A DNA stretch of 64,000 nucleotides from NCBI RefSeq assembly GCF_964213995.1, contig NC_135808.1, positions 22,630,001 to 22,694,000 on the forward strand, read 5' to 3'. The DNA is from Mustelus asterias (taxonomy: Eukaryota). The number at the start of each line of letters is the position of its first letter. The stretch's first letter is position 1. This document shows positions 1,020 to 44,893 of the stretch, piece by piece. Both the position numbers and the translations under genes were made by a program. The notes beneath the pieces were generated by a model. It was given only the letters and a program-made list of their open reading frames with translations, was not told the origin of the DNA and made no database searches.

Positions 1020-1124
1020 AACCAAAGTCTCGCTCCCAGGTTGCTGTTACTGTCGGGATTGTGGTCGGGGTCCTCATGCTCATCGCTCTCATCATTATGG
1101 CTGTCGTCATCTACAACAAGAAAG
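1020..1124 (+). CDS. MHC class I gene A, connecting peptide/transmembrane exon ([35 protein letters not shown])
   Basis: Pyrimidine tract + AG at 1018-1019, GT donor at 1125, phase 1/1. Hydrophobic stretch followed by KK. Near-identical to the gene B exon at 32870. Confidence 0.9.
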
Positions 1125-1736: not shown

Positions 1737-1769
1737 GGAGAGGGAAGAGTGACTACAATCCTGCAAATA
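1737..1769 (+). CDS. MHC class I gene A cytoplasmic exon 1 (33 bp; GRGKSDYNPAN)
   Basis: ttttacag acceptor and gtaagc donor, phase 1/1. Tyr-x-x-Ala motif as in the class I exon-6 tail. Confidence 0.85.
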
Positions 1770-2489: not shown

Positions 2490-2536
2490 CTTCTGATAAA
2501 GGGGATTCCACAACCAGCTCCTCCACAGGTTCCTGA
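2490..2536 (+). CDS. MHC class I gene A terminal cytoplasmic exon (TSDKGDSTTSSSTGS*)
   Basis: cctttgacag acceptor. In phase with the previous exon. Ser-rich SD-x-x-x-S class I tail. TGA at 2534-2536. Confidence 0.8.
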
Positions 2537-3385: not shown

Positions 3386-3391
3386 AATAAA
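3386..3391 (+). terminator. Probable polyadenylation signal of gene A (AATAAA)
   Basis: AATAAA directly after the 3'UTR minisatellite. Confidence 0.55.
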
Positions 3392-4860: not shown

Positions 4861-6182
4861 TGTAAAATCCATTAATATGTAATCTCTTATGCAGTAATTC
4901 ACACACTTCTTCCTTCATTGCAATGTCAGCATTGCTCCATGTTTCCCAAAGACAGGGGCAATGTATTTATTCACAACCTCACCACATTCCCCACCCTCTC
5001 ACATGCACTTCTTATTGGGCGCCACAAGGCCTTACTCTTTCCTTATCCTTTTCTCTACATGTGCATCCTTGGAGGTTCTTTGTTTTTTCTTGGCAGCATT
5101 TTTATGCCTTTCTTTACTTTCCTGGTTTCCCTTTCAATTTCACCCCTACTCTCTCTGTACTCTTCCAGGTTTCTGCAGTATTAAGCATGAGGGGTCTGAC
5201 GGATCTTGCTGCTGGTATTTGTGGGGGTCAAGTGGATCTGCTGGGTTTTGTTGGGGGGTGTTCCAGCTCTGCTGGGTTTGCCTCCCTCGATAGTGATGTA
5301 TTTCTTTCTCATCCCCAGTGTTCTCCAGTGCCCCAGGGACACCAGTCCCCAAGATCAGCAGCAGGAGTGGATGAGAGAATCAGGAAGGATGTGATTTCAT
5401 CAAGATGATAGCGACTGACTCATTTAGACACTACATATGTGACGCTGTGTAAATGGAACTGTGACGATGGTTTGTCAGGAATTACTCTATCTGGAGCTGC
5501 ACTTCTTAAGCTATTCTGATCTGCACTTGAAAGGCTATTATGATCTGCCCTGTTTCTACAGACTCTCGGAATCTGTCTGGTTCACTCACTGCCAACTCAG
5601 TCACCTGTTACTGCAGTCTGTAACATTGCTGCAATTTCTACAATAAATGTGATTTAGTTTTTCACTTCCTGCCTCTGTAAAGTCTTCAGTACAAAACTAT
5701 CAATGGGGTAGGGTAACACCACTGCAATGGGGAACATTTTAAGACTTTTAAGAACAATTTACCAAAAATGCACATCAAGAGGAATTAATAGCAATAAATT
5801 AGCAGTAAACACATATTTTAAAAGGGAAGATGGTGCTTGTCAAAGCTCCGAGTATTCGTTGAGATGGTAACAGACATGGTGATGGGAAAATGTGATAGAT
5901 ATACTTATATGGACTTTAGAAAAAAGTTACCACATGGGGGTTTATTAGTTAAGATTAAACGAATACTTTGCACATCTCTTCAGCTGGATCACAATGTTCT
6001 TTTCCCATTCCAGCCTCTCATTCCAGATTAAGACCTGGAAGATGCAGGAAGGTGACAACAAGTAACTTTCGTGGTCCTGTCCAGTTCCACCTCCCCAATC
6101 AGTAATTCCTGATTTTAATAACCCACCACACATCCAGGTGCGTGACACATGTCCATTACGTCCAGGTGGAGTTTGGGCTGTC

Positions 6183-10093: not shown

Positions 10094-10101
10094 CTGATTG
10101 G
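10094..10101 (+). promoter_or_regulatory. MHC Y box (CTGATTGG, inverted CCAAT) of gene B
   Basis: Exact Y-box octamer ~150 bp upstream of the start codon. Confidence 0.65.
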
Positions 10102-10261
10102 AGAATTCTGAATATTGAGGAAGTTTGCCAACCTGTTTTGTGTCTAATCAGATTGCGGCTTCGTGTGAACAGAAAAAGACAGAAGGAACAAGTTGAGAAG
10201 ATCCCCTTTCTTTGGAAAAGAGTTTCCTCCAAAGGTTTCTCCCAACATGAGGGAAGCAGCA

Positions 10262-10310
10262 ATGATTGGACTGATAGAGCTGGTCCTTCTGTGTGGAGAG
10301 GTGTCTGCAG
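10262..10310 (+). CDS. Gene B exon 1, signal peptide [16 protein letters not shown] (in-frame upstream ATG at 10247 adds MREAA)
   Basis: ATG...GCA G|gtgagt. Phase 1 joins to (G)GT TCT CAC = GSH. V-S-A cleavage motif. Confidence 0.8.
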
Positions 10311-16300: not shown

Positions 16301-19300
16301 GGTGAAACCCAAACTGGGCGTCACTGAGCAGGTTATCATTAAGCAGGTGCTGCTTGATAGTACCCGTGGAGAATTATATGACAAGAACGTTGGATCGAAG
16401 GAAATCTCACAGAGTGTTTCCTGAGAATATACTCAAGCAATATTTTGATCGGGAAGGAAAGCAGAAGGGGGATGCATTAGTTATGACAATGCAGAGTGAA
16501 GAAATAAGTCCAGATGATTCTGCATTTGACATTCTTCAAATTAGATTGGATAATGTGGAAGTAATCGGAAATTGAAATAAACGATTGAGTTACCTTCTGG
16601 AGGAAAATCAAAATGGCCTGAAAGAGTTACTACAACCACATGGAGAGATATGTGGGAATAAACTGGGAAGGACTAAAATAATTATGCACAACGTAGATGT
16701 AAGAAATGCTGTTCCAATTAAGCAATATCTGTACAAGCTTAACCCTCCAAAGTTGGCATAGGTTCAAAAGGAGATTGAAAGCATATTTAAAAATTACATA
16801 ATTGAAGTGAGTTGGAGCGAGTGCAGCTCACCCGTAGTGAGGGTTCCAAAATGAGATGACACCCAACAATTCTGTGTGGACTATAGGAAAGTTAATGCAG
16901 TTACAAAATAAGATTCATATCCCATTCCTTTCTTGGGAGACTGCATTCAGAAGGTGGGACAAGTGACTTTTATTTCCAAACTTGACTTACTAAAAGGATA
17001 CTGGCGGGTACCTTTATCCGAAAGGGCAAAGGAGATTTTGGCTTTCATGACAAAAAATGGTCAGTACCAGTTTAAAATCATGCCATTTGAAATGAAAAAT
17101 GCACGAGCCACATTTCAAACATTAACTAATAAGGTCATTTCTGGACTACCTAATTGTGCTGTGTACATAAACAAACTGGTGGTTTTCAGACAGATGTGGA
17201 AGGAACATTTGGAGCACCGAGCGGAATTGTTCAATTGGCTTCAGGATGCAGGCTTGGTGGTAAACTTGGCTAAGAACGAGTTTACAAAAACCAAAGTCAC
17301 ATTCATAGTCCATACAATTAGACATGGATGGAAGGCCCTACGGTCGGTGAAAACAAAGGTTATTGGGGAGTGCCCAATACTGCCGGTGAAAAGTGAAGTA
17401 CTGCATTCTTGGACCTGGATGGTTTTTATAGGAATTTTGTGCCAAACATTTGCATTATGGTTGCTGCACTGACTGACTTGCTGAAAAAACATGCAAAATT
17501 TCAGTGGACGGTGAATGTCAGAGGGCATTTGGCAGCCTGAATAATGTGTTAACCACTGCACCTGTGTTGGCAAGAACAAATTATGCAAAACCATTCAAGA
17601 TGGCCATTGATGCGAGTGATGTGGCTGTTCTATTACAAGAAGATGACAAAAGGATATAAAGACCAATTGGGTACTTTTTTCTGGAAAACTAAATAACCAT
17701 CAAAAGAGATTCAACCATTGAGAAAAGAAACATTGAGTTTGGTGTTGGCATTGCAACATTTTAACGTTTATGTTGTCAGCAATTCATCTGAGACAGTTAT
17801 TTACACTGATCATAATCTATTGACGTCTCTGGAGAAATTTAGAGATCAAAGTGAAAGGCTCTTTAGATGGAGTTTATTATTACAGCCATTTTATATGAGA
17901 ATTACAATGTGGCAGAAAGTGAGAATGTGATTGCTGATGCTTCATCAACAATTTCATGAAAGAGGAAGGAATATTCAATGTCGGAAGAGAATGACTGTAC
18001 TGGACAATAGAACTATTATACTTGCATGCATTGATTTACTAGAATGTGTATATTTTATATATATATATATGTAGTACTAATAGTGTGAAACTTGAAGTTA
18101 TGAAAAATGAAGCCATTTTTTATTGCTGTTTTTTTTAAGGGGGAGGTGTGAGGATACTGTGCCTTTAAGAAATGTATCTATATCATGTTTCTTGTGAAGG
18201 GATTGTTTTCAACTTCAGCTCTGATTACAGTGCCGATTTGCCCACAAACAGCAGCCCACATGCTGAGAGTGCAGAAGCATAATTTATCCCAGATAATGTT
18301 TCTTTTTGCTTTTATCTGAGCTGTTTTGTTTATTTTTTTGGGTTGTCCCTGGGGTTTCAGAGTAAGGTTTAATTCGGTTGATTGACAAGAGGAAGTCATA
18401 TGCTGATGGGAAGAGCTAAGCTTACAGGAAGACAAGCAGACAGTTGTCTGCCTGGACCTGCCAGAAGCATTATTCCCTCTCTCTTTCTCTAAAGACTGTA
18501 GTTTGGGACCTGCTCGAAAATAGGTCTCTCTCCAGAGGTGTTTTGGAGGCTGGAGATACCCAGCTCAGATACCCACATGTAAGGCTGTTTGCTGACTGAT
18601 TTTCAGGAGGTGTTTATGTCTATGAGGAATATTGCTTAAATTGGAACAATTAGAAATAATCCAGCAGTTAAGAGTTGTATCTTGTCACATGTAAGAATTT
18701 CAGTTGGTAAAAGTTGAGGCTATTTCTTTTTGTTATAGTTAAACTGTACTGTTAAATAAAGTTTGTTTTGACAAAAGCTTCCTAGTGGGTCATTGGAATG
18801 ACACCTCGAGTGAAACACTTTATCCTCACACGAATGTCAAAGTCAAAAAAGAGAGTTGGGGTCTGGTCTAAATTCATAACATGGAGTTTCTAATCTGGTG
18901 CCCAACGGTGGATGCTGGTGTTTTGTGTTCATACCTTGATCTCTCTCCGTTTTTCAGGTTCTCACTCTCTCCGGATTTCCGTCACGGGAATGACTCCGAT
19001 CCCGGGTTTCCCGGAGTTTGTGCTTGTCGGTTATGTGGATGATCTCCGGGTTGTTGTGTACGACAGCGATCGGAAGGAGCTGATCCCCCAGGAGCAGAGG
19101 ATGGTGGAGATCGACGGACATGAGGCTTGGGAACAGAAGAAGATTCTCGCACAAGAGCTGGGGATGATTGTCAAATTGTCTTTTCCGGTCTTCATTTCTC
19201 TGTCCCAGCAGACAGGAAGTGAGTCCTCACTTTCCCACCACTCGGGGGTGCAGGTGGGAAGAAACCAAGAATGGATCAGGAACTGGGAGCCAGAGGCTGA

Positions 19301-22300
19301 TTGGCTACGATTGGATATGTGACAGCAAATTTGATTGGCGATCAATGAGTGGAGGGAATGTATCCAAGAGAGACTGGCTCGGATTGGCTGTGTGTGGAGG
19401 ACATGAGATCCACTTAGTGTAACTGCCGCTGATTGGCTTTCTATGTGGTGGGAGGTGCCTCGCTTGATTTGATTGGCTCTTGATAGAGTGGGTCTGGCTT
19501 CTGAGTGGAACTAGCTTGGATTGGCTGTGGGGGTGGGATCTCACATTGGGACTGACTCTAATTGGCTGTTTGTGATCCACAGGAATCCATGTTTTACAGA
19601 TGATGACTGGCTGCAATCTGAGGGATGATGGGACCACGAGTGCATTCAACCGGATTGGGTGGAATGGACAGGATGTGCTCAGCTTCGACAAGGATCACAT
19701 GGTGTGGGTGACCCCAGTGACCTGGGGAGAGATCATCAAAAACAATCTTGACAGGGATACTGCCCAGAATGAGCGATTCAAACAATTACTGGAGGTGGAC
19801 TGTATTGAGTGGTTGAGGAAATCCCTCGAGTTCGGACAGAGTGAACTGACAGCTGGTGAGTGAGGGGGGAGCGAGAATTGGTGAGTGATGGGGGGAGCGA
19901 GAGTCGGTGAGTGAGGGGGGGAGTGAGAGTCGGTGAGTGAGGGGGGGAGTGAGAGTCGGTGAGTGAGGGGGGAGCGAGAGTCGGTGAGTGAGGGGGGGAG
20001 CGAGAGTCGGTGAGTGAGGGGGGGAGCGAGAGCCGGTGAGTGAGGGGGAGCGAGAGTCGGTGAGTGAGGGGGGAGCGAGAGTTGGTGAGTGAGGGGGGAG
20101 CGAGAGTCGGTGAGTGAGGGGGGAGCGAGGGTCGGTGAGTGAGGGGAGAGCAAGGGTCGGTGAGTGAGGAGGGTTTGGGAATCAGTGGGTGAGGTAGGAG
20201 TGAGTGGGAATCGGTGAGTGAGGGAGGGAGTGAGAGTCGGTGAGTGAGGAGGGGAGCGAGAGTCGGTGAGTGAGGGGGGAGGGAGAGTCGGTGAGTGAGG
20301 GGGGGAGCGAGAGTCGGTGAGTGAGGGGGGGAGCGAGAGCCGGTGAGTGAGGGGGAGCGAGAGTCGGTGAGTGAGGGGGGAGCGAGAGTTGGTGAGTGAG
20401 GGGGGAGCGAGAGTCGGTGAGTGAGGGGGGAGCGAGGGTCGGTGAGTGAGGGGAGAGCAAGGGTCGGTGAGTGAGGAGGGTTTGGGAATCAGTGGGTGAG
20501 GTAGGAGTGAGTGGGAATCGGTGAGTGAGGGAGGGAGTGAGAGTCGGTGAGTGAGGGGGGGAGCGAGAGTCGGTGAGTGAGGGGGGAGGGAGAGTCGGTG
20601 AGTGAGGGGGGGAGCGAGAGTCGGTGAGTGAGGGGGGGAGCGAGAGTCGGTGAGTGAGGCGGGAGTGAGAGTTGGTGAGTGAGGGGGGGAGCGAGTGTCG
20701 GTGAGTGAGGGGGGAGCGAGGGTCGGTGAGTGAGGGAGGAGCGAGGGTCGGTGAGTGAGGAGGGTTTGGGAATCAGTGGGTGAGGTAGCAGTGAGTGGGA
20801 ATCGGTGAGTGAGGGAGGGAGGGAGACTCGGTGAGTGAGGGGGGAACTGAGAGTCGGTGAGTGAAATGTGAGTGAGAGTCGGGGAGGGGGTGGGAATCAG
20901 TGGGTGAGGGGGTGTGGGAATCAGTGGGTGAGGGGGGAGTGAGTGGGAATCAGTGGGAGTGAGTGGGAATCAGTGGGTGAGGGGGGAGTGAGTGGGAATC
21001 GGTGAGTGAGGGAGACTGAGTCATTGAGTGACTCGGGACAGATAGAGAGAAAGGTAGAAAACACCTCCTGCATTTTGCAGAAAGCTGGAGGGAGATACTT
21101 ATTTTCTATCAGCTCCCAGACTGCAATTTCCAGACAGAGAAAGGGAGAGAGAAAGAGCTGCTCCTTCGTTTTTCAAATTGAAACAGCAACTGCCTGCCTG
21201 TCCCTCTGTAACCCAAACTGCTCCCATTGACATGATTTCATTCTTGCCAATCAACCTAATTACACCCGACTCTGAAACACCAGGAGAAAACCACAACATT
21301 TCACAAAACTGCATTAGCTCAGATTAAAACAAACACCCCAATACTTAGGACCAATTACTCTTCTGCATTATGTTGTGAAGTTTATGTTTTTAAAATGATA
21401 ACACAATTGTAACAATTGGAGTTTTCTAAACAGCATTCCATTGGAATCGTGCTTTATTCGGTTTGTTAATTGTTTTGTTAACCTGATTGCTGTTAGTTAG
21501 ATAAATAAAGTGTTACTTGTTGCTTTACAGAGGGAATCTCAGGTAGTTATTTTGATTTGACCACTAAAAGTTGCTGAAGAGCAGATATTAACCCTTCTCA
21601 CACACACTTTAACAGATTATGAAGGGACGTAATGCTCTTTCAGTGGCTGAGTATCAGTTCTCAGAGAGGAAATCAACTTCCACTTCGTAACAATTATCAG
21701 CATGTGGGCTGCTGCAGTAATCAGAGTTGACACATAAAACAGTCCCTTTAGAAGAAATGCAAATACATTCCTTAAAAGCACAGTTCTGACACAGGGGACT
21801 TAGAGTGAGTGAGGGAGGGAGGGAGTGAGATTCGGTGAGTGAAGGAGGTGAGAGAGCCGGTGAGTGAGGGGGGGGAGTGAGAGTTGGTGAGTGAGGGGGG
21901 AGTGAGAGTCGGTGAGTGAGGGTGGAGTGAGAGTCGGTGAGCGAGGGGGGAGTGAGAGTCGGTGAGTGAGGGGGGAGTGAGAGTCGGTGAGTGAGGGGGG
22001 AGTGAGAGTCGGTGAGTGAGGGGGGGAGTAAGAGTCAGTGAGTGAGGGGGGTAGTGAGAGTCGGTGAGAGAGGGTGGAGTGAGAGTCGGTGAGTGAGGGG
22101 GGAGTGAGAGTCGGTGAGTGAGGGGGGGAGTGAGAGTCGGTGAGAGAGGGTGGAGTGAGAGTCGGTGAGTGAGGGGGAATGAGAGTCGGTGAGTGAGGGG
22201 GGAGTGGGTGTCGGAGGGTGAGGGGGGAGTGAGAGTCGGTGAGTGAGGGGGGAGTGAGAGTCGGTGAGTGAGCGGGGAGTGAGAGTCGGTGAGTGAAGGG

Positions 22301-25300: not shown

Positions 25301-28300
25301 TGAGAGTCGGTGAGTGAGGGGGGAGTGAGAGTGGGTGTGTGAGCGGGGAGTGAGAGTCGGTGAGTGAGTGGGGGAGTGAGAGTCGGTGAAGGGGGTGATG
25401 CCGGGACCCTCCATCTCGAGGTTCCTGTACTGACTCCTCTTTCTTTCTCTCTCAGTTGCCCCGATCGTGTCCTTTACCCGTCTGGGTGATTCTAACCAGC
25501 TGTCCTGTGCCGTCACTGGGTTTTACCCTCAAGCCATCGAGGTGAATCTGTGGAGAGATGAAGTGGTGATTGATGAGACTCTGTCCAGTGGGATCTTACC
25601 CAATCACGACAGCACCTACCAGATCCGGAAATGGGCAGAGTTTGATCCAGAGGACCAGGCCGAGTATTCCTGTCGGGTGGAACACAGCGGGATGAATGAG
25701 ACACTGGTGGTGATTTACGGTAAGACTATTTCTCACTGTTCGAGAGGACCCAGCCTCAGACCAGGGTCACAGGAGGGAGGGTCAGTGCTGAGCTGTCAGC
25801 CCAGGACAGCCTGAGGCCCAGTATAGAGCAAGAAGGAAATAAATATTAATCTTCAATGCATTACATCATCATGGTGTCACCATTAAAGGAAAGTGATTGT
25901 GTGTCCTGGGATTTTACTGTGCAATCTGCCCCAGTGTATCCTGCGATATTATAGCATGACAGGGCCCGGTGCATTGTGGCAAATAACAGGAAGTGCAGGA
26001 CCCATTGCATTGTTGAATATTATAGTAGGAAAGGGCGCCTGTGGATCATGAGATATTACTGTGTGACAGGCCAGTGTATCCTGAGATATTACAGTATTAC
26101 AGGGCCAGTGTATCCTGGGATATTACAGTATGACAGGGCCAGTGTATCCTGGGATATTCCAGTATGACAAGGCCAGTGTATCCTGGGATATTACAGTATT
26201 ACAGGGCCAGTCTATCCTGGGATATTACAGAATGACAAGGCCAGTGTATCCTGGGATAGTACAATCTTACAGGGCCACTGTATCCTGGGATATTACAGTA
26301 TTACAGGGCCAGTGTATCCTGGGATATTACAATATTACAGGGCCAGTGTATCCTGGGATATTACAGTATTACAGTGTCACTGTATCCTGGGATATTACAG
26401 TATTACAGGGCCAGTGTATCCTGGGATATTATAGTGTGACAGGGCCAGTGTATCCTGGGCTATTACAGTATTACAGGGCCAGTGTATCCTGGGATATTAC
26501 AGTATGACAGGGCCAGTGTATCCTGGGATATTACAGTATGACAGGGCCGAGTGTATCCTGGGATATTACAGTATTACAGGGCCAGTGTATCCTGGGATAT
26601 TACAGTATGACAGGGCCAGTGTATCCTGGGCTATTACAGTATAAAGTTTAACAACACCAGGTTAAAGTCCAACAGGTTTATTTGGTAGCTTTTGCTACCA
26701 AATAAACCTGTTGGACTTTAACCTGGTGTTGTTAAACTTCTTACTGTGTTTACCCCAGTCCAACGCCGGCATTTCCACACTATTACAGTATTACAGGGCC
26801 AGTGTATCCTGGGATATTACAGTATGACAGGGCCAGTGTATCCTGGGATATTACAGTATGACAGGGCCAGTGTATCCTGGGATATTACAGTATGACAGGG
26901 CCAGTGTATCCTGGGATATTACAGTATTACAGGGCCAGTGTATCCTGGGATATTACAGTATGACAGGGCCGAGTGTATCCTGGGATATTACAGTATTACA
27001 GGGCCAGTGTATCCTGGGATATTACAGTATGACAGGGCCAGTGTATCCTGGGATATTACAGTATTACAGGACCTAGTGTATTCTGGATGTTTACTCCAGT
27101 CAACTTCGGATGAATGTTCAGAAAAATACTGGAACTCTGTCTATTGGAGAGAATTCATGAAAATCTAGAAAGTCTATTTGGACTTCAGTAAGGCCTTTGA
27201 TAAATTTCTATATGGCAGGCTGCTCTGGAAGGTGAGATCACATGGAATCCAGGGAGAGCTGGCAAATTGCTGATGTAATTGTCGTGATGATAGGAAGGAG
27301 AAGGTAATGGTGGAAGGGTGCTTGTCGGACTGGATGCCTGTGACTAGTGTATGCCCCAGGGGTCGGTGCTGGGCCCATTGCTGTTTGTTATCTATATCAA
27401 CAATTTGGATGAGAATGTACAAGGCATGATCAGTAAGTTTGCAGAAGACACTAAAGTAGGTGGTATTTTAGGCAGTGAGGAAGCTTGTCAAAAATTGGAG
27501 CAGGATCTTGATCAGCTGGAGAAATGGGCCGAGAAATGGCAAATGGAGTTCAACACAGATGAGTGTGAGCTGTTGCATTTTGGAAAGTCAAATCAAGCTC
27601 AGACTTTAACAGTGAATTGTAGGACCTTAGGGAGTTTCGTTGAACTTAGGGACCTTGGAGTTCAGGTGCACAGTTCTCTGAAAGTGGAGTCACAGGTAGA
27701 TAGGGCAGTGAAGAAGCCTTTTGGCACGCTGGCCTTCAGTCAAGTCACTGAGTATAGAAGTTGGGAAGTTATGTTGCAGTTGCACAGGACGTTGGTGAGG
27801 CCGCACTTGGAGTATTGTGTTCAGTTTTGGTCGCCCTGCTACAGGAAATATGTTATTAAACTCGAAAGAGTACAGAAGAGATTTACAAGGATGTTGCCAG
27901 GACTGAAGGGACTGTGTTGTAGGGAGAGATTGGACATGCGAGGACTTTTTTCCTTTGGAGCGTAGGAGACTAAGGGGTGATCTTGTAGAGGTATATAATA
28001 AGATCATGAGGGACATGGATAGGGTGAATGCACTCAGTCTTTTTCCCAGGGTTGGGGAATCGAGAACTCGAGAGCATAGGTTTATGTTAAGAGGGGAAAA
28101 AATTAATGGAAACCTGAGGAGCAACTGTTTTACACAGAGAATGGTACATATGTGCAAAGAGCTGCCGGAGGAAGTGGTTGAAGCAGGGACATTGACAACA
28201 TTTAAAAGGCATTTGGACAGATACATGGATCTGAAAGGTTTAGGGGGATATGGGTCAAATACAGGCAAATGGAGTTAAGTTAGATGGATATTTTGGTCGG

Positions 28301-31300: not shown

Positions 31301-32997
31301 TCTTTTGGATAGAAACAGTCTAGCCCATATTGTCAATATTTACGTCTGTAAGATTGGGAGTGAAAACACGCTCAAAGAAATGGTTCAGGCACTCTCTCGT
31401 TTTCACGCCAGCCGGACAATGAAAATAATCTCGGAAAATTCCGCCCCATTTCTCAATTTGCAGAGGACATCAAATTGTGATGAATTAGTCAATATTGAGG
31501 AGAACTGCAATACATTAATTGGACATTCATAAACTTTTAGAATGAGCAAATAATTGGTGAATGGAGTTCAGCACAGATAAACGTGAAGGTAGTTTTCTGT
31601 TAAAGATGTATCGGGAGGTCACTTATTACCTGGAAGGTGCCGGTGTGGATGGAGTTGAGGAACAAAGGGATCTGGGTGTACAAATACACCAATCAGTAAC
31701 AGGTTAGACAAGGTCATAAACAAAATAAATGGAAAACCAGGTTTTATTTCTCGAGAGATTGAATTGTAAAGCAGGGATGTTATTGCTAAACCTGTATCAG
31801 CCTTCATTATAGGACATTTAGCACGTGTGCAGTTCCGGTCACCATTTCATACAAAGGATATAGATTCAGGGGAGAGAGTGCAGAGATGATTTACAAAGAT
31901 GATTCCAGGAATGAGTGGGTGGACATCTCGGTGAAGGATTGACCGGGTCTCCGCACTCAGGAAAACAGAAGGCTGAGGGTTGACCTAGTCGAGGTCTTGA
32001 AAATCATAGAACCCTACAGTGCAGAAGGAGGCCATTCGGCCCATCGAGTCTGCACCGACCACAATCCCACCCAAGCCCTACCCCCACATATTTACCCGCT
32101 AATCCCTCTAACCTACGCATCTCAGGGGCAATTTTTAACCTGGCCAATCAACCTAACCCGCACATCTTTGTGGGAGGAAACCGGAGCACCCGGAGGAAAC
32201 CCACGCAGACACGAGGAGAATGTGCAAACTCCACACAGACAGTGACCCGAGCCGGGAATCGAACCCAGGACCCTGGAGCTGTGAAGCAGCAGTGCTAACC
32301 ACTGTGCTACCGTGCCGCCCAAAATTATGCAAGGTTTTTATAGACTGGAAACAGAAAGAATGTTTGCTCTTGTGGGAAGGACAAACTGGAGGCCATCAAT
32401 GCAGGATAGTCACCAAGAAACGCAATGGGAAATTCAGGAGAGATCTCTTTACCAAAGAATGAAGAGAATGTGAAGCTCGCTACTGCAGGGAGTGGCTGAA
32501 CTGAACAGTAGATTAAGAGGAAAATAGACAAGCAAAAGAGAAGGGAATAGAGTTAAAATGGTTGAATTAGATGTGGGAAGATGGGAGGAGGCTCAAGTGG
32601 AACATAAACACCAGCATCAACTGGATGGGTTGATTGGCTGATTTTTATGTCGTATATCCTGTGTTTCCTGATTCTCTCTCTCTCTCTGACTCACTCTCTT
32701 TCATTTTGTCTCTCTCTCTGATTTCTCTCTCTTTCTGATTCTCTCTCTCTCCCTCCCTTCTTGGCCTCTTTCATTCTCTCCCACTTTCACGTTCTCTCTC
32801 TCCCTCTCTCTGATTCTCACTTTTCCCTCTCCCTGATTCACTCAGTCTCTCTGATTCTCTCTCTAACAGAAGCAAAGTCTCGCTCCCAGGTTGCTGTTAC
32901 TGTCGGGATTGTGGTCGGGGTCCTCGTGCTCATCGCTCTCATCATTGTGGCTGTCGTCATCTACACCAAGAAAGGCAGGAATTTGAAGGGAAAATAG
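10262..32997 (+). CDS. Non-classical MHC class I heavy chain, gene B (UEA/UCA-like by residue pattern). join(10262..10310,18958..19218,19583..19855,25456..25719,32870..32997), 324 aa in the read-through form
   Basis: Five exons, all joined by phase-1 GT-AG introns, with no stops. GSHSLR start, C101-C164 and C203-C259 equivalents, C1-set alpha3 and a TM segment. The 3' end is uncertain (see findings). Confidence 0.88.
10440..10800 (+). repeat. ~43-bp degenerate minisatellite (gggtgttggtgttttggggttcacaccctgatgtctctctctct) in gene B intron 1
   Basis: Tandem units. One further unit forms the alpha1 acceptor region at 18908-18957, beyond the LTR element. Confidence 0.8.
13513..13822 (+). mobile_element. 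HE1-type SINE nested in the Gypsy integrase
   Basis: Canonical head, and gatgggccaagtggcctccttctgcact tail. Confidence 0.85.
13862..16370 (-). mobile_element. CR1-like LINE (~13862-14826 + ~16041-16370) interrupted by a second CR1 (~14827-16040), both minus strand, nested in the Gypsy element
   Basis: Outer element: [15 protein letters not shown] and ALDIKATF. Inner element: [32 protein letters not shown] and a cataagaa tail. Confidence 0.85.
18958..19218 (+). CDS. Gene B alpha1 exon ([29 protein letters not shown]...ISLSQQTG)
   Basis: tttttcag acceptor, gtgagt donor, 261 bp. Class I alpha1 signature. Confidence 0.95.
19583..19855 (+). CDS. Gene B alpha2 exon ([13 protein letters not shown]...WNGQD...[19 protein letters not shown])
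   Basis: ccacag acceptor, gtgagt donor, 273 bp. Both alpha2 cysteines present. Confidence 0.95.
21040..21793 (-). mobile_element. Partial solo LTR (related to the intron-1 Gypsy LTR) carrying a nested, internally deleted second solo LTR at 21371-21692
   Basis: Reverse complement matches gtttcagagtcggg..gattg and tgtg..actgtgcctttaag of the 18147 LTR. The nested element runs TG...CA with ATTA TSD. Confidence 0.7.
23635..24897 (-). mobile_element. Duplicate of the composite LTR, with the longer nested solo LTR at 23966-24796 (TATA-like gtataaaag ~24250)
   Basis: Near-identical to 21040-21793 plus ~500 bp of extra internal sequence. Confidence 0.7.
25456..25719 (+). CDS. Gene B alpha3 exon (Ig C1-set; [10 protein letters not shown]...LPNHDSTYQ...YSCRVEHSG)
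   Basis: ctctctcag acceptor, gtaaga donor, 264 bp. C1-set motifs. Confidence 0.96.
25930..27075 (+). repeat. 34-bp minisatellite (acagggccagtgtatcctgggatattacagtatg) in gene B intron 4
   Basis: Homogeneous tandem units with no spacers. Internal TATCC-TG-GGATA dyad. Confidence 0.95.
26643..26779 (+). mobile_element. Short fold-back Penelope-like insertion inside the 34-bp minisatellite
   Basis: Palindrome of the PLE terminus plus tail ccccagtccaacgccggcatttccaca. TSD ctattacagtat. Confidence 0.85.
27170..28350 (+). mobile_element. 5'-truncated CR1 LINE (RT C-terminal half + 3'UTR)
   Basis: [40 protein letters not shown]. Confidence 0.9.
28371..30270 (+). mobile_element. Internally deleted Gypsy-type LTR element (LTRs start 28371 and 30006) retaining only integrase remnants, with a SINE fragment at ~29044-29240 (-)
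   Basis: Direct repeats tgtgataacccc..acctacaa..gggaatccctg. Purine tract before 30006. Integrase-like [15 protein letters not shown] and TAPYH. Confidence 0.75.
30627..31446. mobile_element. Non-autonomous DNA transposon (PIF/Harbinger-like MITE)
   Basis: Terminal inverted repeats gggtagaatttt / aaaattccgccc. 3-bp TSD CAT at 30624-30626 and 31447-31449. Confidence 0.7.
32004..32320 (-). mobile_element. Young full-length HE1-type SINE
   Basis: Complete head and tail, aaaat flanking duplication. Absent from the paralogous site at ~525. Confidence 0.9.
32870..32997 (+). CDS. Gene B TM exon (32870-32974) plus read-through to TAG (…[14 protein letters not shown])
   Basis: AG at 32868-32869. 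The donor is gcagga (gtagga in gene A). In-frame TAG at 32995-32997. Confidence 0.85.
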
Positions 32998-33224
32998 CAG
33001 CTCCTCACTGGGGGGAGGGATTGTGGGAGAGTATTCCAGGTGGGGGTGGCTCAGGCTGTGGGACTCAGGTTGGTGTGGAGGAGGTCACAGAGTGGGTGGG
33101 AGAGCCGCAGGGTTGGGATAGGGAGGGTGAGGGGCTCAAGAAAAAGGGGGAGAGTTTGAGAATTCTGGGTTCTCATGTTGGATGAGGAGTTGAGGGCATC
33201 AGTGAGAGTCCCGGATCCCTGCAG

Positions 33225-34590
33225 GAGTGAGGGGCTCAGGTCAGTGTGGGAGTGGGGGACTCGGGTCAGTGTGGGAGTGGGGGACTCGGGTCAGTGTGGG
33301 AGTGGGGGACTCGGGTCAGTATGGGAGTGGGGGGCTCGGGTCAGTGTGGGAGTGGAGGACTCGGGTCAGTGTGGGAGTGGGGGACTCGGGTCAGTGTGGG
33401 AGTGGGGGACTCGGGTCAGTGTGGGAGTGGGGGACTCGGGTCAGTGTGGGAGTGGGGGACTCGGGTCAGTGTGGGAGTGGGGGACTCGGGTCAGTGTGGG
33501 AGTGGGGGACTCGGGTCAGTGTGGGAGTGGGGGACTCGGGTCAGTGTGGGAGTGGGGGACTCGGGTCAGTGTGGGAGTGGGGGACTCGGGTCAGTGTGGG
33601 AGTGGGGGACTCGGGTCAGTGTGGGAGTGGGGGACTCGGGTCAGTGTGGGAGTGGGGGACTCGGGTCAGTGTGGGAGTGGGGGTCTCGGGTCAGTGCGGG
33701 AGTGAGGGGCTCGGGTCAGTGCGGGAGTGAGGGGCTCGGGTCAGTGTGGGAGTGGGGGACTCGGGTCAGTGTGGGAGTGGGGGGCTCGGGTCAGTGTGGG
33801 AGTGAGGGGCTCAGGTCAGTGTGGGAGTGAGGGGCTCAGGTCAGTGTGGGAGTGAGGGGCTCAGGTCAGTGTGGGAGTGAGGGACTGGGGTCAGTGTGGG
33901 AGTGGGGGACTCGGGTCAGTGTGGGAGTTGGGGACTCGGGTCAGTGTGGGAGTTGGGGACTCGGGTCAGTGTGGGAGTGAGGGGCTCAGGTCAGTGTGGG
34001 AGTGAGGGACTGGGGTCAGTGTGGGAGTGGAGGACTCGGGTCAGTGTGGGAGTGAGGGGGCTCGGGTCAGTGTGGGAGGGGGGACTCGGGTCAGTGTGGG
34101 AGGGGGGACTGGGGTCAGTGTGGGAGTGGGGGACTGGGGTCAGTGTGGGAGTGGGGGACTGGGGTCAGTGTGGGAGTGGGGGACTGGGGTCAGTGTGGGA
34201 GTGGGGGACTCGGGTCAGTGTGGGAGTGGGGGACTCGGGTCAGTGTGGGAGGGGGGACTGGGGTCAGTGTGGGAGTGGGGGACTGGGGTCAGTGTGGGAG
34301 TGGGGGGCTCGGGTCAGTGCGGGAGTGGGGGGCTCGGGTCAGTGTGGGAGTGGGGGGCTCGGGTCAGTGCGGGAGTGGGGGACTGGGGTCAGTGTGGGAG
34401 TGGGGGACTCGGGTCAGTGTGGGAGTGGGGGACTCGGGTCAGTGTGGGAGTGAGGGGCTCGGGTGCGTGTGGGAGTGAGGGGTTTGGGTCAGTGTGGGAG
34501 TGAGGGGCTCGGGTCAGTGTGGGAGTGAGGGACTGGGGTCAGTGTGGGAGTGAGGGGTTTGGGTGAGTGTGGGAGTGAGGGACTCGTGTT
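33225..34590 (+). repeat. 25-bp G-rich minisatellite (tcgggtcagtgtgggagtgggggac), ~54 units
   Basis: Direct tandem repetition. Confidence 0.95.
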
Positions 34591-35163
34591 TGTTGCTCTG
34601 ATGAATTGTGCTGGTGTTTAGGGGTCTGATGGGTTTGAGCTCATCAAGCCTCCTTCTCCCCTCTTCCAAATTTTCAATGATGAGCTCACCTTAAATCCAC
34701 GCTAACTTTCCTTGATTAATCTGTGCCTTTCTAAATGAAGGTTTATACTTCATCACATTGGAATTATTAATTCCAATAATTTTCCCACCAAGTAAGTTAA
34801 ACTAACTGGTGTATAATTACTCAGATTGCCCCTTCATCCCTTTTCAATCCATGGTGTAATGCTGTCAGTCCTTTAATCTCCGTTCACTCTCCTGTGACCG
34901 GGAAGAATGATTCTGATTATCGGAGCCTCTGCAATTCCCTCCTTTGCTCCTTTTAACCTGGTGATTTATCTCCTCTCAAACTTGTAAAATCCCTGAATAC
35001 ATCATCTCTTACAATGTTTATCTGATGCAGTAATTCACACATTTCCTCCTCAACTGCAATGTCAACATTGCTCCCTGTTTCCCAAACACAGTGGCAATGT
35101 ATTTATTGTAAGAAGTTTAACAACACCAGGTTAAAGTCCAACAGGTTTATTTTGTAGCAAAAG

Positions 35164-35208
35164 CCATACGAGCTTTCGGAGCTCCAAGCCCCTTCTTCAG
35201 GTGAGTGG
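35164..35208 (-). ncRNA. Minimal type-I hammerhead ribozyme motif in the PLE terminus
   Basis: Minus strand ccacucac CUGAAGA a GGGGC uugga GCUCC GAAA gc UC guaugg: core boxes, a 5-bp stem II and a palindromic AGCU stem III. Confidence 0.65.
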
Positions 35209-38064
35209 GAATTCTGTTCACAAACAGGGCATATAAAGACACAAACTCAATTTACATGAATAATGGTTGGAATGCGAATACTTACAGCTAATCAAGTCTT
35301 TAAGATACAAACAACGTGAGTGGAGAGAGCATCAAGACAGGCTAAAAAGATGTGTATTGTCTCCAGACAAGACAGCCAGTGAAACTTTGCAGGTTCAGGC
35401 AAGCTGTGGGGGTTACAAATAGTGTGACATGAACCCAATATCCCGGTTGAGGCCGTCCTCGTGTGTGCAGAACATGGCTATCAGTTTCTGCTCAGCGACT
35501 CTGCGCCGCCGTGTGTCGTGAAGGCCGCCTTGGAGAATGCTTACCCGAATATCAGAGGCCGAATGCCCGTGACCGCTGAAGTGCTTCCCAACAGGAAGAG
35601 AACAGTCTTGCCTGGTGATTGTCGAGCGGTGTTCATTCATCCGTTGTCGCAGCGTCTGCATGTTTTCCCCAATGTACCATGCCTCGGAACATCCTTTCCT
35701 GCAGCGTATCACGTAGACAACGTTGGCCGAGTTGCAAGAGTATGTGCCGTGTACCTGGTGGATGGTGTTCTCACATGAGATGATGTCATCTGTGTCAATG
35801 ATCCAGCATGTCTTGCCGAGGTTGCTGTGGCAGGGTTGTGTGGTGTCGTGGTCACTGTTCTCCTGAAGGCTGGGTAGTTTGCTGCGGACAATGGTCTGTT
35901 TGAGGTTGTGTGATTGTTTGAAGGCAAGAAATGCGGGTGTGGGGATAGCCTTGGAGAGATGTTCGTCTTCATCAATGACATGTTGAAGGCTCCGGAGGAG
36001 ATGCCGTAGCTTCTCCGCTCCGGGGAAGTAATGGACGACGAAGGGTACTCTGTCTATTGTGTCCCATGTTTGTCTTCTGAGGAGGTCGGTGCGGTTTTTC
36101 ACTATAGCGCGTTGGAACTGTTGATCAATGAGTCGAGCACTATATCCTGTTCTCATGAGGGCATCTTTCAGCGTCTGGAGGTGTCTGTTGCGATCCTCCT
36201 CATCCGAGCAGATCCTGTGTATACGGGGGGGCTTGTCCGTAGGGGATGGCTTCTTTAACATGTTTAGGGTGGAAGCTAGGGCAGTGGAGCATCGTGAGGT
36301 TATCCGTGGGCTTGCGGTACGGTGAGGTACTGAGGTGACCATCCTTAATGGAGATGCGTGTGTCCAAGAATGCAACCGATTCCGGAGAGTCGTCCATGGT
36401 GAGTCTGATGGTGGGATGGAACTTGTTGATGTCATCATAGAGTTGTTTCAGTGATTGTTCACCATGAGTCCAAAGGAAGAAAATGTAATCGATGTATCAG
36501 TACACTTCTAAATGACAACTAAACAATGAGGAACACTGCAGACAGTTACCTGCAGATCCGACCAAAGAACACACCCATCAACTCAACACTCTGATCAAGA
36601 CCTTTGATCCGGACCTTCAGAGCACCCTCCTTGCTCTCATCCCACGTACTCCACACGTTGGAAATCTCTACTGCCTCCCGAAGATACACAAGGCAAACAC
36701 ACCTGGCCATCCCATCATATCGGGCAATGGAACCTTGTGCGGGAACCTCTCCGGCTATGTCGAGGGCATCCTGAAACCCATTGTACGAAGAACTCCCAGC
36801 TTTTGTCATGACACTGTGGACTTCCTACAGAAACTCGGCATACATGGAGCAGTTGAACCAGGAGCACTCCTCGTCACAATGGATGTCTCGGCACTCTACA
36901 CCAGCATCCCCACGATGATGGCATTGCTGCAATGGCCTCAGTGCTCAGCGCCGACAAATGCCAGTTTCCAGATGCAATTTTACAACTCATCCGCTTCATC
37001 CTGGACCACAATGTCTTCACCTTCAACAACCAGTTCTTCATCCAGACACACGGAACAGCCATGGGGACCAAATTCGCACCTCAATATGCCAACATCTTCA
37101 TGCACAGGTTCGAACAAGACTTCTTCACCGCACGGGACCTTCAACCGATGCTATACACTAGATACATCGATGACATTTTCTTCCTTTGGACTCATGGTGA
37201 ACAATGACTGAAACAACTCTATGATGACATCAACAAGTTCCACCCCACCATCAGACTCACCATGGACTACTCTCCGGAATCGGTTGCATTCTTGGACACA
37301 CGCATCTCCATTAAGGACGGTCACCTCAGCACCTCACTGTACCGCAAGCCCACGGATAACCTCATGATGCTCCACTTCCCCAGCTTCCACCCTAAACAGT
37401 TAAAGAAGCCATCCCCTACGGACAAGCCCTCCATATACACAGGATCTGCTCAGATGAGGAGGATCGCAACAGACACCTCCAGACGCTGAAAGATGCCCTC
37501 ATGAGAACAGGATATAGCGCTCGACTCATTGATCAACAGTTCCAACGCGCCACAGCGAAAAACCGTACCGACCTCCTCAGAAGACAAACACGGGACACAG
37601 TGGACAGAGTACCCTTCGTCGTCCAGTACTTCCCTGGAGTGGAGAAGCTACGGCATCTCCTCCGGAGCCTTCAACATGACATTGATGAAGACGAACATCT
37701 CGCCAAGGCCATCCCCACACCCCCACTTCTTGCCTTCAAACAACCGTACAACCTCAAACAGACCATTGTCCGCAGAAGACTACTCAGCTTTCAGGAGAAC
37801 AGTGACCACGACACCACACAACCCTGTCACAGCGACCTCAGCAAGACGTGCCGGATCATTGACACAGATGCCATCATCTCACGTGAGAACACCATCCACC
37901 AGGTACACGGTACATACTCTTGCAACTCGGCCAACGTTGTCTACCTGATACGCTGCAGGAAAGGATGTCCCGAGGCATGGTACATTGGGGAAACTATGCA
38001 GACGCTGCGACAATGGATGAATGAACACCGCTCGACAATCACCAGGCACCTGTGAACAGAATTT

Positions 38065-38109
38065 CCACTCACCTGAAGAAGGGGCTTGGAGCTCTGAAAG
38101 CTTGTGTGG
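38065..38109 (+). ncRNA. Minimal hammerhead ribozyme motif (second copy)
   Basis: ccactcac CTGAAGA a ggggc ttgga gctct GAAA gc tt gtgtgg. Confidence 0.6.
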
Positions 38110-38573
38110 CTTTTGCTACCAAATAAACCTGTTGGACTTTCACCTGGTGTTGTTAAACTTCTTAATGTGTTTTACCCCAGTCCAACGCCGGCATCTCCAC
38201 ATAATGTATTTATTCACAACCTCGCCACATTCTCCACCCTCTCTCACAGGCTATCTTGTTGGTCTCCAAAAAGTTCTCCCCTTTCCTTATCCTTTTCTCT
38301 TCATGTACTGATACAGCATGTTTGGAGGTTCTTTGATATTTTCTTGGCAGCATTTTTCATGCCCTCTCTTTACTTTTCTGATTTCCTTTTTAATTTCACC
38401 CTGACACTCTCTGTACTATTCCAGGTTTCTGCATTATTAGGCGTGAGGCGTCTGATGGACTTTGCTGTTGGTATATGTGGGAGTTGGGTGGATCTGATGT
38501 GTTTTGTTGGGGGTGCTCCAGCTCTGCTGGGTTTGCCTCACTCTAAAGTGATGTCTTTCTTTCTCATCCCCAG

Positions 38574-38677
38574 TGCGGGCCCGGCAGTTTAATCCAGAGG
38601 TACCAGTCCCTGAGAACAGCAGTGGACAAGAGAATGAGGGAAGATGTGATGTCATCAAGCTGACAACCATTAACTGA
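38574..38677 (+). CDS. Candidate alternative terminal exon of gene B ((V)RARQFNPEVPVPENSSGQENEGRCDVIKLTTIN*)
   Basis: tctttctttctcatccccag acceptor. Open in phase 1. AATAAA at 38856-38861. Frame preserved in the paralogs at 44274 and 5319. Confidence 0.35.
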
Positions 38678-38959
38678 TTCAAGTTCCACATTTGTAACTC
38701 TGTAACTGGAACTGTGGTCATGGTTTGTCAGGAATTCCCCTATTTGGTGCTGCACTTTTTAAGCTATTCTGATCTGCCCTATCATCCTGCACAAATTCTA
38801 GGAACTTGTCTCGTTCACTGCAAACTGCAATCTGTAACTTTGCTGCAATGTCTGCAATAAATGATTTATTTTCACTTCCTGCCTCTGCAAAGTCTTCAAT
38901 ACAAAACTAATATTACTGGGGTAGGGTAACACCACTGCAGTGGAGAACATTTCAAGACA

Positions 38960-39283
38960 TGGGCGTTACGGTGGCACAGTGGTTAGCACTGCTGCTTCAC
39001 AGCGCCAGGGACCTGGATTCAATTCCCAGCTTAGGTCACTTTCTGTGTGGAGTTTGCACATTCTCCTCGTGTCTGCATGGGTTGCCTCCGGGTGCTCCGG
39101 TTTCCTCCCACAGTCCAAAGATGTGCGGGTTAGGTGGACTGGCAATGCTAAAATTGCCCCTTAGTGTCAGGGGGACTAGCTAGGGTAAATGCATGGGTTG
39201 CGGTGAGAGGGGTCTGGGTGGTATTGTGGTCGGTGCAAACATGATGGGCTGAATGGCCTCCTTCTGCACTGTATGATTCTATG
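38960..39283 (+). mobile_element. HE1-type SINE (duplicated at ~44659-44893)
   Basis: Canonical head and tail. Absent from the gene A paralogous site at ~5745. Confidence 0.85.
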
Positions 39284-39368
39284 AATTTGAGAAGAAATGA
39301 CCAGAAATGTACATCAAGAGGAATTAGTAACAATAAATTAGCAGCAAGAACAGATTTCAAAAAGGAAG

Positions 39369-44176: not shown

Positions 44177-44893
44177 GTGGGAGTTGGGTGGATCTGATGT
44201 GTTTTGTTGGGGGTGCTCCAGCTCTGCTGGGTTTGCCTCACTCTAAAGTGATGTATTTCTTTCTCATCCCCAGTGCGGGCCAGGCAGTGTAATCCAGAGG
44301 TACCAGTCCCTGAGAACAGCAGTGGACAAGAGAATGAGGGAAGATCTGCTGTCATCGAGCTGACAGCGACCAACTGATTCAAGTTCCATATTTGTGACTC
44401 TGTAAATGGAACTGTGGTAATGGTTTGTCAGGAATTCCTCTATCTGGAGCTGCACATTTAAAGCTATTCTGATCTGCCCTATCATCCTGCACAAACTCGA
44501 GGAACCTGTCTCGTTCACTGCAAACTCAGTCACCTGTTTCTGCAATCTGTCACTTTGCTGCAATGTCTTTCACTTCCTGCCTCTGTGAAGCCTTCAATAC
44601 AAAACTAATATTGCTGGGGTAGGGTAACACCACTGCAGTGCAGAACATTTCAAGACATGGGCGGCATGGTGGCACAGTGGTTAGTACTGCTGCCTCACAG
44701 TGCCAGGGTCCTGGGTTCAATTCCCAGCTTGGGTCACTGTCTGTGTGGAGTTTGCACATTCTCCGCGTGTCTGTGTGGGTTTCCTCCGGATGCTCCAGTT
44801 TCCTCCCACAGTCCAAAGATGCGCAGTTGAGATGGATTGGCAATGCTACAATTGCCCCTTAGTGTCAGGGGGACTAGCTAGGGTAAATGCATG
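44177..44893 (+). repeat. Local direct duplication of ~38477-39195 (5.7-kb offset), including the candidate exon (44274-44377) and SINE
   Basis: Near-identical sequence starting tgtgggagttgggtggatctgatg. Confidence 0.9.

What the first reader, a model, noticed from the sequence alone, without database searches (positions are those of the whole stretch)
32870..34680. Class I gene B has had its cytoplasmic tail rebuilt: GT>GC donor, both tail exons deleted, new read-through stop
Seen, in three parts. (1) Gene A's TM exon ends AAAG|gtagga and is followed by the Tyr-motif exon (1737-1769), the Ser-rich exon (2490-2536) and AATAAA (3386). (2) Gene B's paralogous exon ends AAAG|gcagga and has an in-frame TAG 7 codons later (aaaatag, versus aaaagag in A). 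(3) After the 25-bp minisatellite, gene B jumps via ~1.5 units of the 3'UTR minisatellite (34605-34636) straight to sequence matching ~4530, so both tail exons and the polyA signal are gone. The ectodomain exons remain fully open. Established: the class I tail YxxA motif and serines control endocytosis, and truncated tails (as in HLA-G) prolong surface residence. Inference: three matching changes suggest a live short-tailed paralog (…[11 protein letters not shown]) rather than simple decay. Lysines at -1 and -3 are reminiscent of, but do not match, a KKxx/KxKxx ER-retrieval signal.
Basis: partly seen in the sequence, partly recalled or inferred. Interest (0 to 1): 0.8.

Follow-up and report, generated by a model that had tools for sequence, protein, structure and literature searches.

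The report
Shark MHC subfamily rewired its tail
A small branch of a known shark immune-display gene family (MHC class I, UBA) deleted both exons for its inner tail while an old spare end exon survived downstream, and this copy later also damaged the splice signal after its membrane anchor, so it likely makes a short-tailed protein somewhat like human HLA-G, although no RNA from it was found and it may be decaying.

Summary
All three lesions are real and not an assembly collapse. Four near-identical copies of gene B share them, and two diverged sisters (C1, C2) share the deletion junction. But they are not one coordinated rebuild. The sisters keep the GT donor, so the deletion came first. The GC donor, the 1-nt insertion that puts TAG in frame, and a stronger cryptic donor 65 nt downstream are later and B-specific. 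It is homologous to tails in gene models of other sharks, and RefSeq splices sister C2 to it. Most likely, B splices from the cryptic donor to that exon, giving ...KKGRNLKGK with a usable 3' end (inferred). Decay is nearly as likely: no B RNA was found, the clade lost a conserved promoter block, B's own changes hit conserved residues, and an orphan fragment has the same GT>GC. Lineage: UBA (tree). RefSeq already predicts the short tail. The scan noted similar tail losses before, in other shark genomes (unchecked). New variant of a known kind; interest 0.42.

The parts
10100..10246 (+). Gene B proximal promoter, B-clade type: lacks a 66-bp block (near 10135) holding TGACTCA and, in most paralogues, a second CTGATTGG; CCAAT is changed to CTAAT (10144-10148)
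   Evidence: 3 of 3 B-clade promoters lack TGACTCA and CCAATCAG; 21 of 21 other distinct promoters seen have both. Reading them as AP-1/X2- and Y-box-like elements is recalled knowledge.
10247..10310 (+). Gene B signal-peptide exon
   Evidence: 100% identical to gene A's
18958..19218 (+). Gene B alpha1 exon (N86 glycan sequon and Y7 lost clade-wide)
   Evidence: (Pfam MHC_I)
19583..19855 (+). Gene B alpha2 exon
   Evidence: Pfam MHC_I
25456..25719 (+). Gene B alpha3 exon
   Evidence: C1-set
32870..32974 (+). Gene B transmembrane exon, followed by a GC donor (AAG|GCAGGA, 5 of 9 matches to the donor consensus)
32975..32997 (+). Intron read-through: 7 codons and TAG, brought into frame by a B-specific 1-nt insertion
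   Evidence: same C-terminus in RefSeq model XP_078075045.1
33037..33045 (+). Candidate cryptic donor CAG|GTGGGG (exon end 33039; 65 nt after the GC donor, 42 nt after the stop), strengthened by a B-specific 1-nt deletion; use is predicted, not shown
   Evidence: only the 4 B copies of 30 fetched have it; 6 of 9, as the native GT donor; sister sites 4-5 of 9
33224..34586 (+). 25-bp G-rich minisatellite, 54.6 copies; length differs among B copies
34583..34641 (+). Deletion junction: remnant of the 28-bp 3'UTR array between two breakpoints; both tail exons and the proximal polyA are missing
   Evidence: same junction in C1 and C2 at 93-96%
35108..38202 (.). B-specific retroelement insertion, 12-bp target duplication, inverted arms 35609-36498/37161-38048 (94%)
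   Evidence: weak RVT_1 hit below the cut-off
38574..38861 (+). Distal last exon ('exon X'): phase-1 acceptor ending 38573, 34-codon frame to TGA at 38675-38677, AATAAA at 38856
   Evidence: RefSeq splices sister C2 to its homologue
44274..44377 (+). Duplicate of exon X, no AATAAA within 900 nt
1020..1124 (+). Gene A transmembrane exon with GT donor (reference paralogue)
1737..1769 (+). Gene A tail exon 1 (Tyr motif)
2490..2536 (+). Gene A tail exon 2 (Ser-rich, stop); AATAAA at 3386
5319..5647 (+). Gene A's own exon X (18-codon frame, AATAAA at 5642)
   Evidence: E = 2e-5 to the tail of a white shark model

Best explanation
Gene B is one of six genes in a small shark UBA class I subfamily whose ancestor deleted both normal tail exons while an older distal last exon survived; B later changed its transmembrane donor to GC and likely splices instead from a cryptic donor 65 nt downstream into that distal exon, which would give a membrane protein with a short basic tail (...KKGRNLKGK) lacking the tyrosine motif. 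Shown steps: the deletion and its order (C1 and C2 share it and keep GT); the surviving acceptor, frame and AATAAA of exon X; and the B-only GC, frame-setting insertion, TAG and stronger +65 donor. Inferred steps: transcription; use of the +65 donor; removal of the minisatellite and retroelement as one intron; escape from nonsense-mediated decay because the stop lies 42 nt before the last junction (50-55-nt rule, recalled); and slower endocytosis, by analogy with mammalian tails. The sisters C1 and C2 reach a similarly short tail by another route (GT to exon X, with a 1-nt deletion giving VRARQ). Constraint on B looks weaker than on its sisters.
For: Order of events. Exon X survives, and is one of only 2 strong acceptors between the donor and 38600. 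RefSeq splices C2 to it. Homologous tails occur in Carcharodon, Cetorhinus and Scyliorhinus torazame models: 0 of 1000 shuffles reach the score for gene A's exon in 6 of 8 comparisons; E = 2e-5. The GC site is weak (5 of 9; U1 duplex -4.7 vs -9.2 kcal/mol), and only about 15-18% of GT>GC changes keep normal splicing, mostly at strong sites (10.1101/479493). The +65 site is unique to B and matches 6 of 9. No stop, frameshift, start loss or intron 1-4 splice loss in B, C1 or C2 against 5.3 expected (P = 0.005; 0.02 at half the indel rate). alpha3 dN/dS is 0.25-0.40, and alpha1+alpha2 dN of 7-9.5% exceeds non-coding divergence of about 3%. Five changes fall within about 35 nt of B's donor against 0.66 expected (window chosen after the fact).
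Against: No RNA of gene B was found. Two RNA-like runs of other organisms show alpha3-TM spliced contigs of ordinary paralogue type that stop at the exon end. RefSeq's B models lack the true first exon, which hints at missing transcript support. The B clade lost a promoter block kept by 21 of 21 other promoters. B's branch alone is compatible with neutrality (P0 = 0.18). 6 of B's 22 private substitutions hit columns at least 80% conserved, not significantly fewer than random (P = 0.10), whereas C1 (3 of 18) and C2 (2 of 21) avoid them (P = 0.02, 0.001); B versus sisters is not significant (Fisher P = 0.18). Whole-CDS dN/dS is 0.81-1.06. Stronger cryptic donors lie more than 55 nt past the stop (33068, 33239, minisatellite units) and would likely trigger decay. 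The same GT>GC stands in an orphan fragment, and 3 other tail-less TM exons also look orphaned. Gene conversion and survivor bias may inflate the open-frame statistic.
Confidence: 0.38

Rival explanations
1. B is a decaying copy. The tail deletion was tolerated or used in the clade's ancestor, but B is now weakly or not transcribed, and the GC donor, insertion, TAG and retroelement are neutral damage multiplied fourfold by a very recent segmental duplication.
For: P0 = 0.18 for an open frame on B's branch. Private hits at conserved columns: F8, R45, W48, G88, Q112, Y169 in 6LUP numbering. Promoter block lost. RefSeq B models lack exon 1. Independent GT>GC in an orphan fragment. TAG letters pre-exist in 4 GT paralogues. 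B1-B4 are 99.6-99.9% identical, so they count as one event.
Against: The frame is open in all four copies. The lesions cluster at the one donor whose exons were already gone (chance of a hit there about 0.04-0.06, my arithmetic). All four cysteines are kept and alpha3 is constrained. HLA-G also has a damaged proximal promoter yet is functional (PMC3021195).
Confidence: 0.33
2. Loss of the donor makes the TM exon be skipped, so alpha3 splices in phase to exon X and B yields a secreted class I chain with a 34-residue hydrophilic end.
For: alpha3 and exon X are both phase 1, and B keeps X's long open frame. alpha3-to-X isoforms are annotated in Carcharodon (P0113, X2) and S. torazame (P0052, X2). 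Exon skipping is a documented outcome of GT>GC. Soluble class I genes exist in salmon and iguana.
Against: The TM exon is intact with a good acceptor (14 of 17 pyrimidines), and several nearby cryptic donors could still define it. No RNA.
Confidence: 0.15
3. The GC donor still works and joins TM to exon X, giving a tyrosine-free 34-residue tail; the read-through stop is incidental.
For: About 15-18% of GT>GC changes leave 1-84% normal splicing. The sisters are predicted to use this route with GT.
Against: Only 5 of 9 consensus matches and half the U1 pairing energy; working GC donors are stronger elsewhere.
Confidence: 0.1
4. The missing exons are an assembly collapse across the minisatellites.
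For: The region is repeat-rich, and the fourfold duplication could be partly uncollapsed haplotypes. No contig bridging the junction was tested.
Against: The same junction stands in six genes, two of them diverged (93-96% identity at the junction), with different array lengths. B-identical intron contigs (210 nt and 108 nt, 0 differences) occur in runs X1 and X3.
Confidence: 0.02

Closest known systems
Elasmobranch UBA class Ib lineage (nurse shark AAC60347, labelled UBA in the PMC10751288 supplement; horn shark AAC60348)
   Same: B groups with AAC60347 at 100/100; multicopy cluster (49 TM-donor sites within about 3 Mb); same exon plan.
   Different: Most UBA members end in a Tyr-motif plus Ser-rich tail. 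The B clade lacks both exons, the N86 sequon and a promoter block, and departs at 11-14 of 114 conserved columns against 1-6 for 15 ordinary paralogues.
HLA-G
   Same: Nonclassical class I with a short tail, an altered proximal promoter and possible soluble forms (PMC3021195 passages).
   Different: HLA-G's stop is in exon 6; here the exons are deleted and the tail would come from intron read-through. HLA-G binds peptides, while this clade lacks the anchor residues. Not orthologous; expression untested.
Lamniform and catshark UBA gene models ending in the distal exon (XP_041069110.1, XP_041068578.1, XP_078422902.1, XP_078422899.1, XP_072331372.1)
   Same: Homologous phase-1 last exon used as a tyrosine-free tail, or directly after alpha3.
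   Different: These are automatic predictions; whether they also deleted the normal exons was not checked. In B the exon would serve as 3'UTR, not as coding tail.
Soluble class I genes: salmon ULA/ZBA, iguana Amcr-UA
   Same: C-terminal exons lost with an intact ectodomain.
   Different: They lack the TM; B keeps it. Relevant only if B skips the TM exon.

Membership tests
MHC class I heavy chain | alpha1/alpha2 platform, C1-set alpha3, paired cysteines, signal peptide, TM | tested here: met
Shark UBA lineage | Groups with reference AAC60347 apart from UAA | tested here: met
   (31-row clade, 100/100, internally open; midpoint root; no labelled UCA/UDA/UEA references included); label
Shark UBA lineage | Multicopy cluster | tested here: met
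Shark UBA lineage | Cluster flanked by c4 and rxrb (PMC10751288) | not tested
   flanks not searched
Classical UAA | Peptide-terminus anchor residues kept | tested here: not met
   alignment to 6LUP; Y7, Y157 and N84 changed clade-wide, Y169 to S in B
HLA-G-type short-tailed class Ib (works-like only) | Short tail without Tyr motif on an intact TM | tested here: inconclusive
   encoded in DNA; transcript not found
HLA-G-type short-tailed class Ib (works-like only) | Premature stop inside the first tail exon | tested here: not met
   exons deleted; stop is intronic
HLA-G-type short-tailed class Ib (works-like only) | Restricted expression and altered surface turnover | not testable with these tools
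   needs RNA and cell assays
Working GC-AG intron | Strong U1 match at the other donor positions | tested here: not met
   5 of 9, -4.7 kcal/mol; criterion
KKxx/KxKxx ER-retrieval signal | Lys at -3 and at -4 or -5 (recalled) | tested here: not met
   Lys at -1 and -3; -4 Leu, -5 Asn

The most novel reading that the evidence does not exclude
Shark UBA genes carry an ancient distal last exon that acts as a tail switch (Tyr-motif tail, Tyr-free tail or secreted form). One smooth-hound subfamily hard-wired it by deletion and then reached a minimal basic tail twice independently (VRARQ in C1/C2, GRNLKGK in B), together with promoter change, glycan loss and an anchor-less groove: a living shark parallel of the HLA-G package.
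Probability: 0.25. Interest if true: 0.7.

Novelty: new variant of a known kind. Interest (0 to 1): 0.42.

Why it matters
Class I tails set surface lifetime and endosomal routing; tail swaps nearly reverse the internalisation rates of HLA-E and HLA-A3 (PMC10165540 passages). If the subfamily is expressed, it shows that tail shortening of nonclassical class I evolved independently in sharks, through a reusable distal exon, and it gives a natural series (normal tail, VRARQ, GRNLKGK, secreted) for testing trafficking in the oldest MHC-bearing group. If B is dead, the case is a clear record of stepwise decay in a birth-and-death cluster, and the distal exon and the sisters C1/C2 remain the useful lead.

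Tried and rejected
Expression: one run search and two read layings on 32780-33220. X1-X4 behave as DNA: intron covered, no splice joints. They hold B-identical intron pieces, but no listed piece showed the GC site itself (92 pieces not shown). In one search, X24 had no cover and X8 one intronic piece; neither is evidence of absence. X18 and X19 showed only ordinary-paralogue spliced contigs. Orthologues of the B clade in other species: none above 70% identity among 95 hits, 1 same-species hit among 2 candidates for alpha1, nothing new among 50%-cluster representatives. Rfam: 0 matches in 32800-39500. The two main shark class Ib papers (PMC8454915, PMC7002201) were not held, and Bartl 1997 was not read. 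Literature searches found no description of this deletion or of a distal last exon in shark class I, but the unread papers may bear on it. The bioRxiv supplement of 10.1101/479493, which lists tested donor contexts, could not be seen. The two Heterodontus tails did not score above shuffles against exon X, so their homology is not claimed. 5 of 30 exon-X loci did not fit my acceptor pattern and were not translated. Rejected: independent tail losses L011, L018 and L023 as evidence of repeated selection, because no same-strand ectodomain was found within 40, 10 and 10 kb upstream. No structure prediction was run, since it would not bear on the tail.
Full report
Setting. The window lies at G000:C8:22630001-22694000. 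A named protein record identical over the alpha2 exon, on a contig of the same length, is from Mustelus asterias (XP_078075045.1). Gene B has SP 10247-10310, alpha1 18958-19218, alpha2 19583-19855, alpha3 25456-25719 and TM 32870-32974 in one open frame (Pfam). A 45-row tree places it in the clade with nurse shark AAC60347 (100/100), which the supplement of PMC10751288 labels UBA (passages seen). Passages of that paper and of PMC12562908 describe UBA as a multicopy class Ib family. A pattern search found 49 TM-donor sites within about 3 Mb.

The observation. All three parts are in the sequence. Of 49 donor sites, 5 are GC: four B copies and one other. B1-B4 are 99.6-99.9% identical, share the junction exactly and differ in array length, so they are one event, recently duplicated or partly uncollapsed. 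The stop needs a correction: the letters AAAATAG also occur out of frame in 4 of 26 fetched GT copies, whose read-through runs 32-85 codons; B's 1-nt insertion sets the frame. RefSeq already ends 3 of the 4 B models in ...KKGRNLKGK, but none has the true first exon.

Order of events. The closest alpha1/alpha2 relatives, C1 (21.87-21.89 Mb) and C2 (24.35-24.37 Mb), are 90-94% identical to B. Both have open frames, the same deletion junction (93-96%) and a normal GT donor. So the deletion predates the split, and the GC, insertion and TAG came later on B's branch. The shared junction in diverged genes also rules out a simple collapse.

The missed exon. RefSeq's model of C2 (P0003) ends ...NKKVRARQ; that end maps to an acceptor 2.3 kb past the donor, with AATAAA 282 nt later. 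The same exon stands in B at 38574 (34-codon frame, AATAAA 38856, behind a B-specific 3.1-kb retroelement), duplicated at 44274, and in gene A at 5319. A search scored 40 of 51 candidate copies; 25 of the 30 fetched fit my acceptor pattern and give 5-34 residue frames, so the peptide is loosely constrained, and several copies lack a nearby AATAAA. Gene A's version matches the C-termini of Carcharodon, Cetorhinus and S. torazame models (6 of 8 comparisons at 0 of 1000 shuffles; the 2 Heterodontus tails not; E = 2e-5). B's version scores 0-13 of 1000 in 5 of 8. Some of those models join alpha3 directly to the exon (P0113, P0052). These are automatic annotations, not experiments.

How B could be spliced. 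The GC site matches 5 of 9 consensus positions, with a U1 duplex of -4.7 kcal/mol against -9.2 for the GT form. About 15-18% of GT>GC changes keep normal splicing, mainly at strong sites (10.1101/479493, abstract and passages). A B-only 1-nt deletion creates CAG|GTGGGG at +65, found in 4 of 30 fetched copies, all B, and as good as the native donor (6 of 9; the energies count G-U pairs and are rough). It lies 42 nt after the stop. Splicing from there to exon X, one of 2 strong acceptors in 32980-38600, would remove the minisatellite and the inverted-repeat element, give a polyA site, and by the recalled 50-55-nt rule escape decay. Without splicing, the first AATAAA is 5.1 kb away. Against this, equal or stronger cryptic donors lie 71 and 242 or more nt past the stop, and TM skipping would give an in-frame secreted chain.

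Alive or decaying. From 15,444 aligned non-coding columns, branch substitution rates are 1.8% (B), 1.0% (C1) and 1.6% (C2). About 5.3 disabling hits were expected in the three coding sequences and none was seen (P = 0.005; 0.02 at half the indel rate), but for B alone P0 = 0.18. Whole-CDS dN/dS is 0.81-1.06, alpha3 0.25-0.40, alpha1 2.5 or more on 0-2 synonymous changes; conversion could shape these. The clade departs from 11-14 of 114 conserved columns against 1-6 in 15 ordinary paralogues and has lost the N86 sequon. C1 and C2 avoid conserved columns in their private changes (P = 0.02, 0.001), B does not significantly (6 of 22, P = 0.10), and the B-versus-sisters contrast is not significant (P = 0.18). 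All 3 clade promoters lack TGACTCA and CCAATCAG, present in 21 of 21 other distinct promoters; HLA-G shows that such loss need not mean death (PMC3021195 passages). The fifth GC donor and three other tail-less TM exons have no ectodomain in the DNA examined upstream, so these lesion types also arise in dead fragments. No B RNA was found: two RNA-like runs from other organisms show ordinary alpha3-TM splicing, ending at the exon boundary.

Verdict. The finding is real. It is a UBA member with a tail architecture I did not find in the papers searched (two key papers not held). The scan noted similar tail losses in other shark genomes (unchecked; I had found the distal exon, before reading them). 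A short-tailed membrane form via the cryptic donor is most likely (0.38), decay close behind (0.33), then secretion (0.15) and GC use (0.10). New variant of a known kind; interest 0.42.

Noticed in passing
window 10100-10246; C1 L106; C2 L113: Clade-wide 66-bp promoter deletion removing TGACTCA, plus CCAAT to CTAAT, with a repeat (SINE-like, my label) just upstream; intron 1 is 8.6-9 kb against about 0.3 kb in gene A.
   Followed up: partly
G000:C8:24408888-24408912 (L186/L187): A fifth, independent GT>GC TM donor on a fragment that keeps both tail exons but has no ectodomain exons in the 8 kb before it, and foreign sequence right after the donor.
   Followed up: yes
L011, L018, L023: Three more TM exons without tail exons, with other breakpoints; apparently orphan fragments.
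   Followed up: partly
C1 L108 and C2 L112, about 0.9 kb before the TM exon; window 31663-31665: C1 and C2 carry a second copy of the deletion junction (25-bp units plus 62 nt) inserted in intron 4; B lacks it.
   Followed up: no
window 11000-44170 versus C1, C2: Mosaic ancestry: in the 5' part B is closer to C1, in the 3' part C1 and C2 are closer to each other.
   Followed up: no
G000:C8:22717590, 23123785, 23542247, 24746036 (L082-L085): Orphan alpha2 exon about 90% like B's, once per duplicated segment; no other class I exon within the 50 kb examined for one copy.
   Followed up: partly
window 35108-38202: Retroelement with a 12-bp target duplication and 890-bp inverted arms (94%); 'Penelope-like' is my recalled label, Pfam gave only a weak RVT_1 hit.
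   Followed up: partly
window 55354-56355 (-): 334-codon open stretch of a rhodopsin-family GPCR (7tm_1, E = 4e-22) inside the class I cluster.
   Followed up: no
window 21037-21792 versus 23632-24896: Internal duplication in B's intron 3 (95%), containing a repeat also found in intron 1.
   Followed up: no
P0001, P0017, P0010: RefSeq models in this cluster fuse neighbouring genes or add unrelated exons, so its tails here need care.
   Followed up: partly
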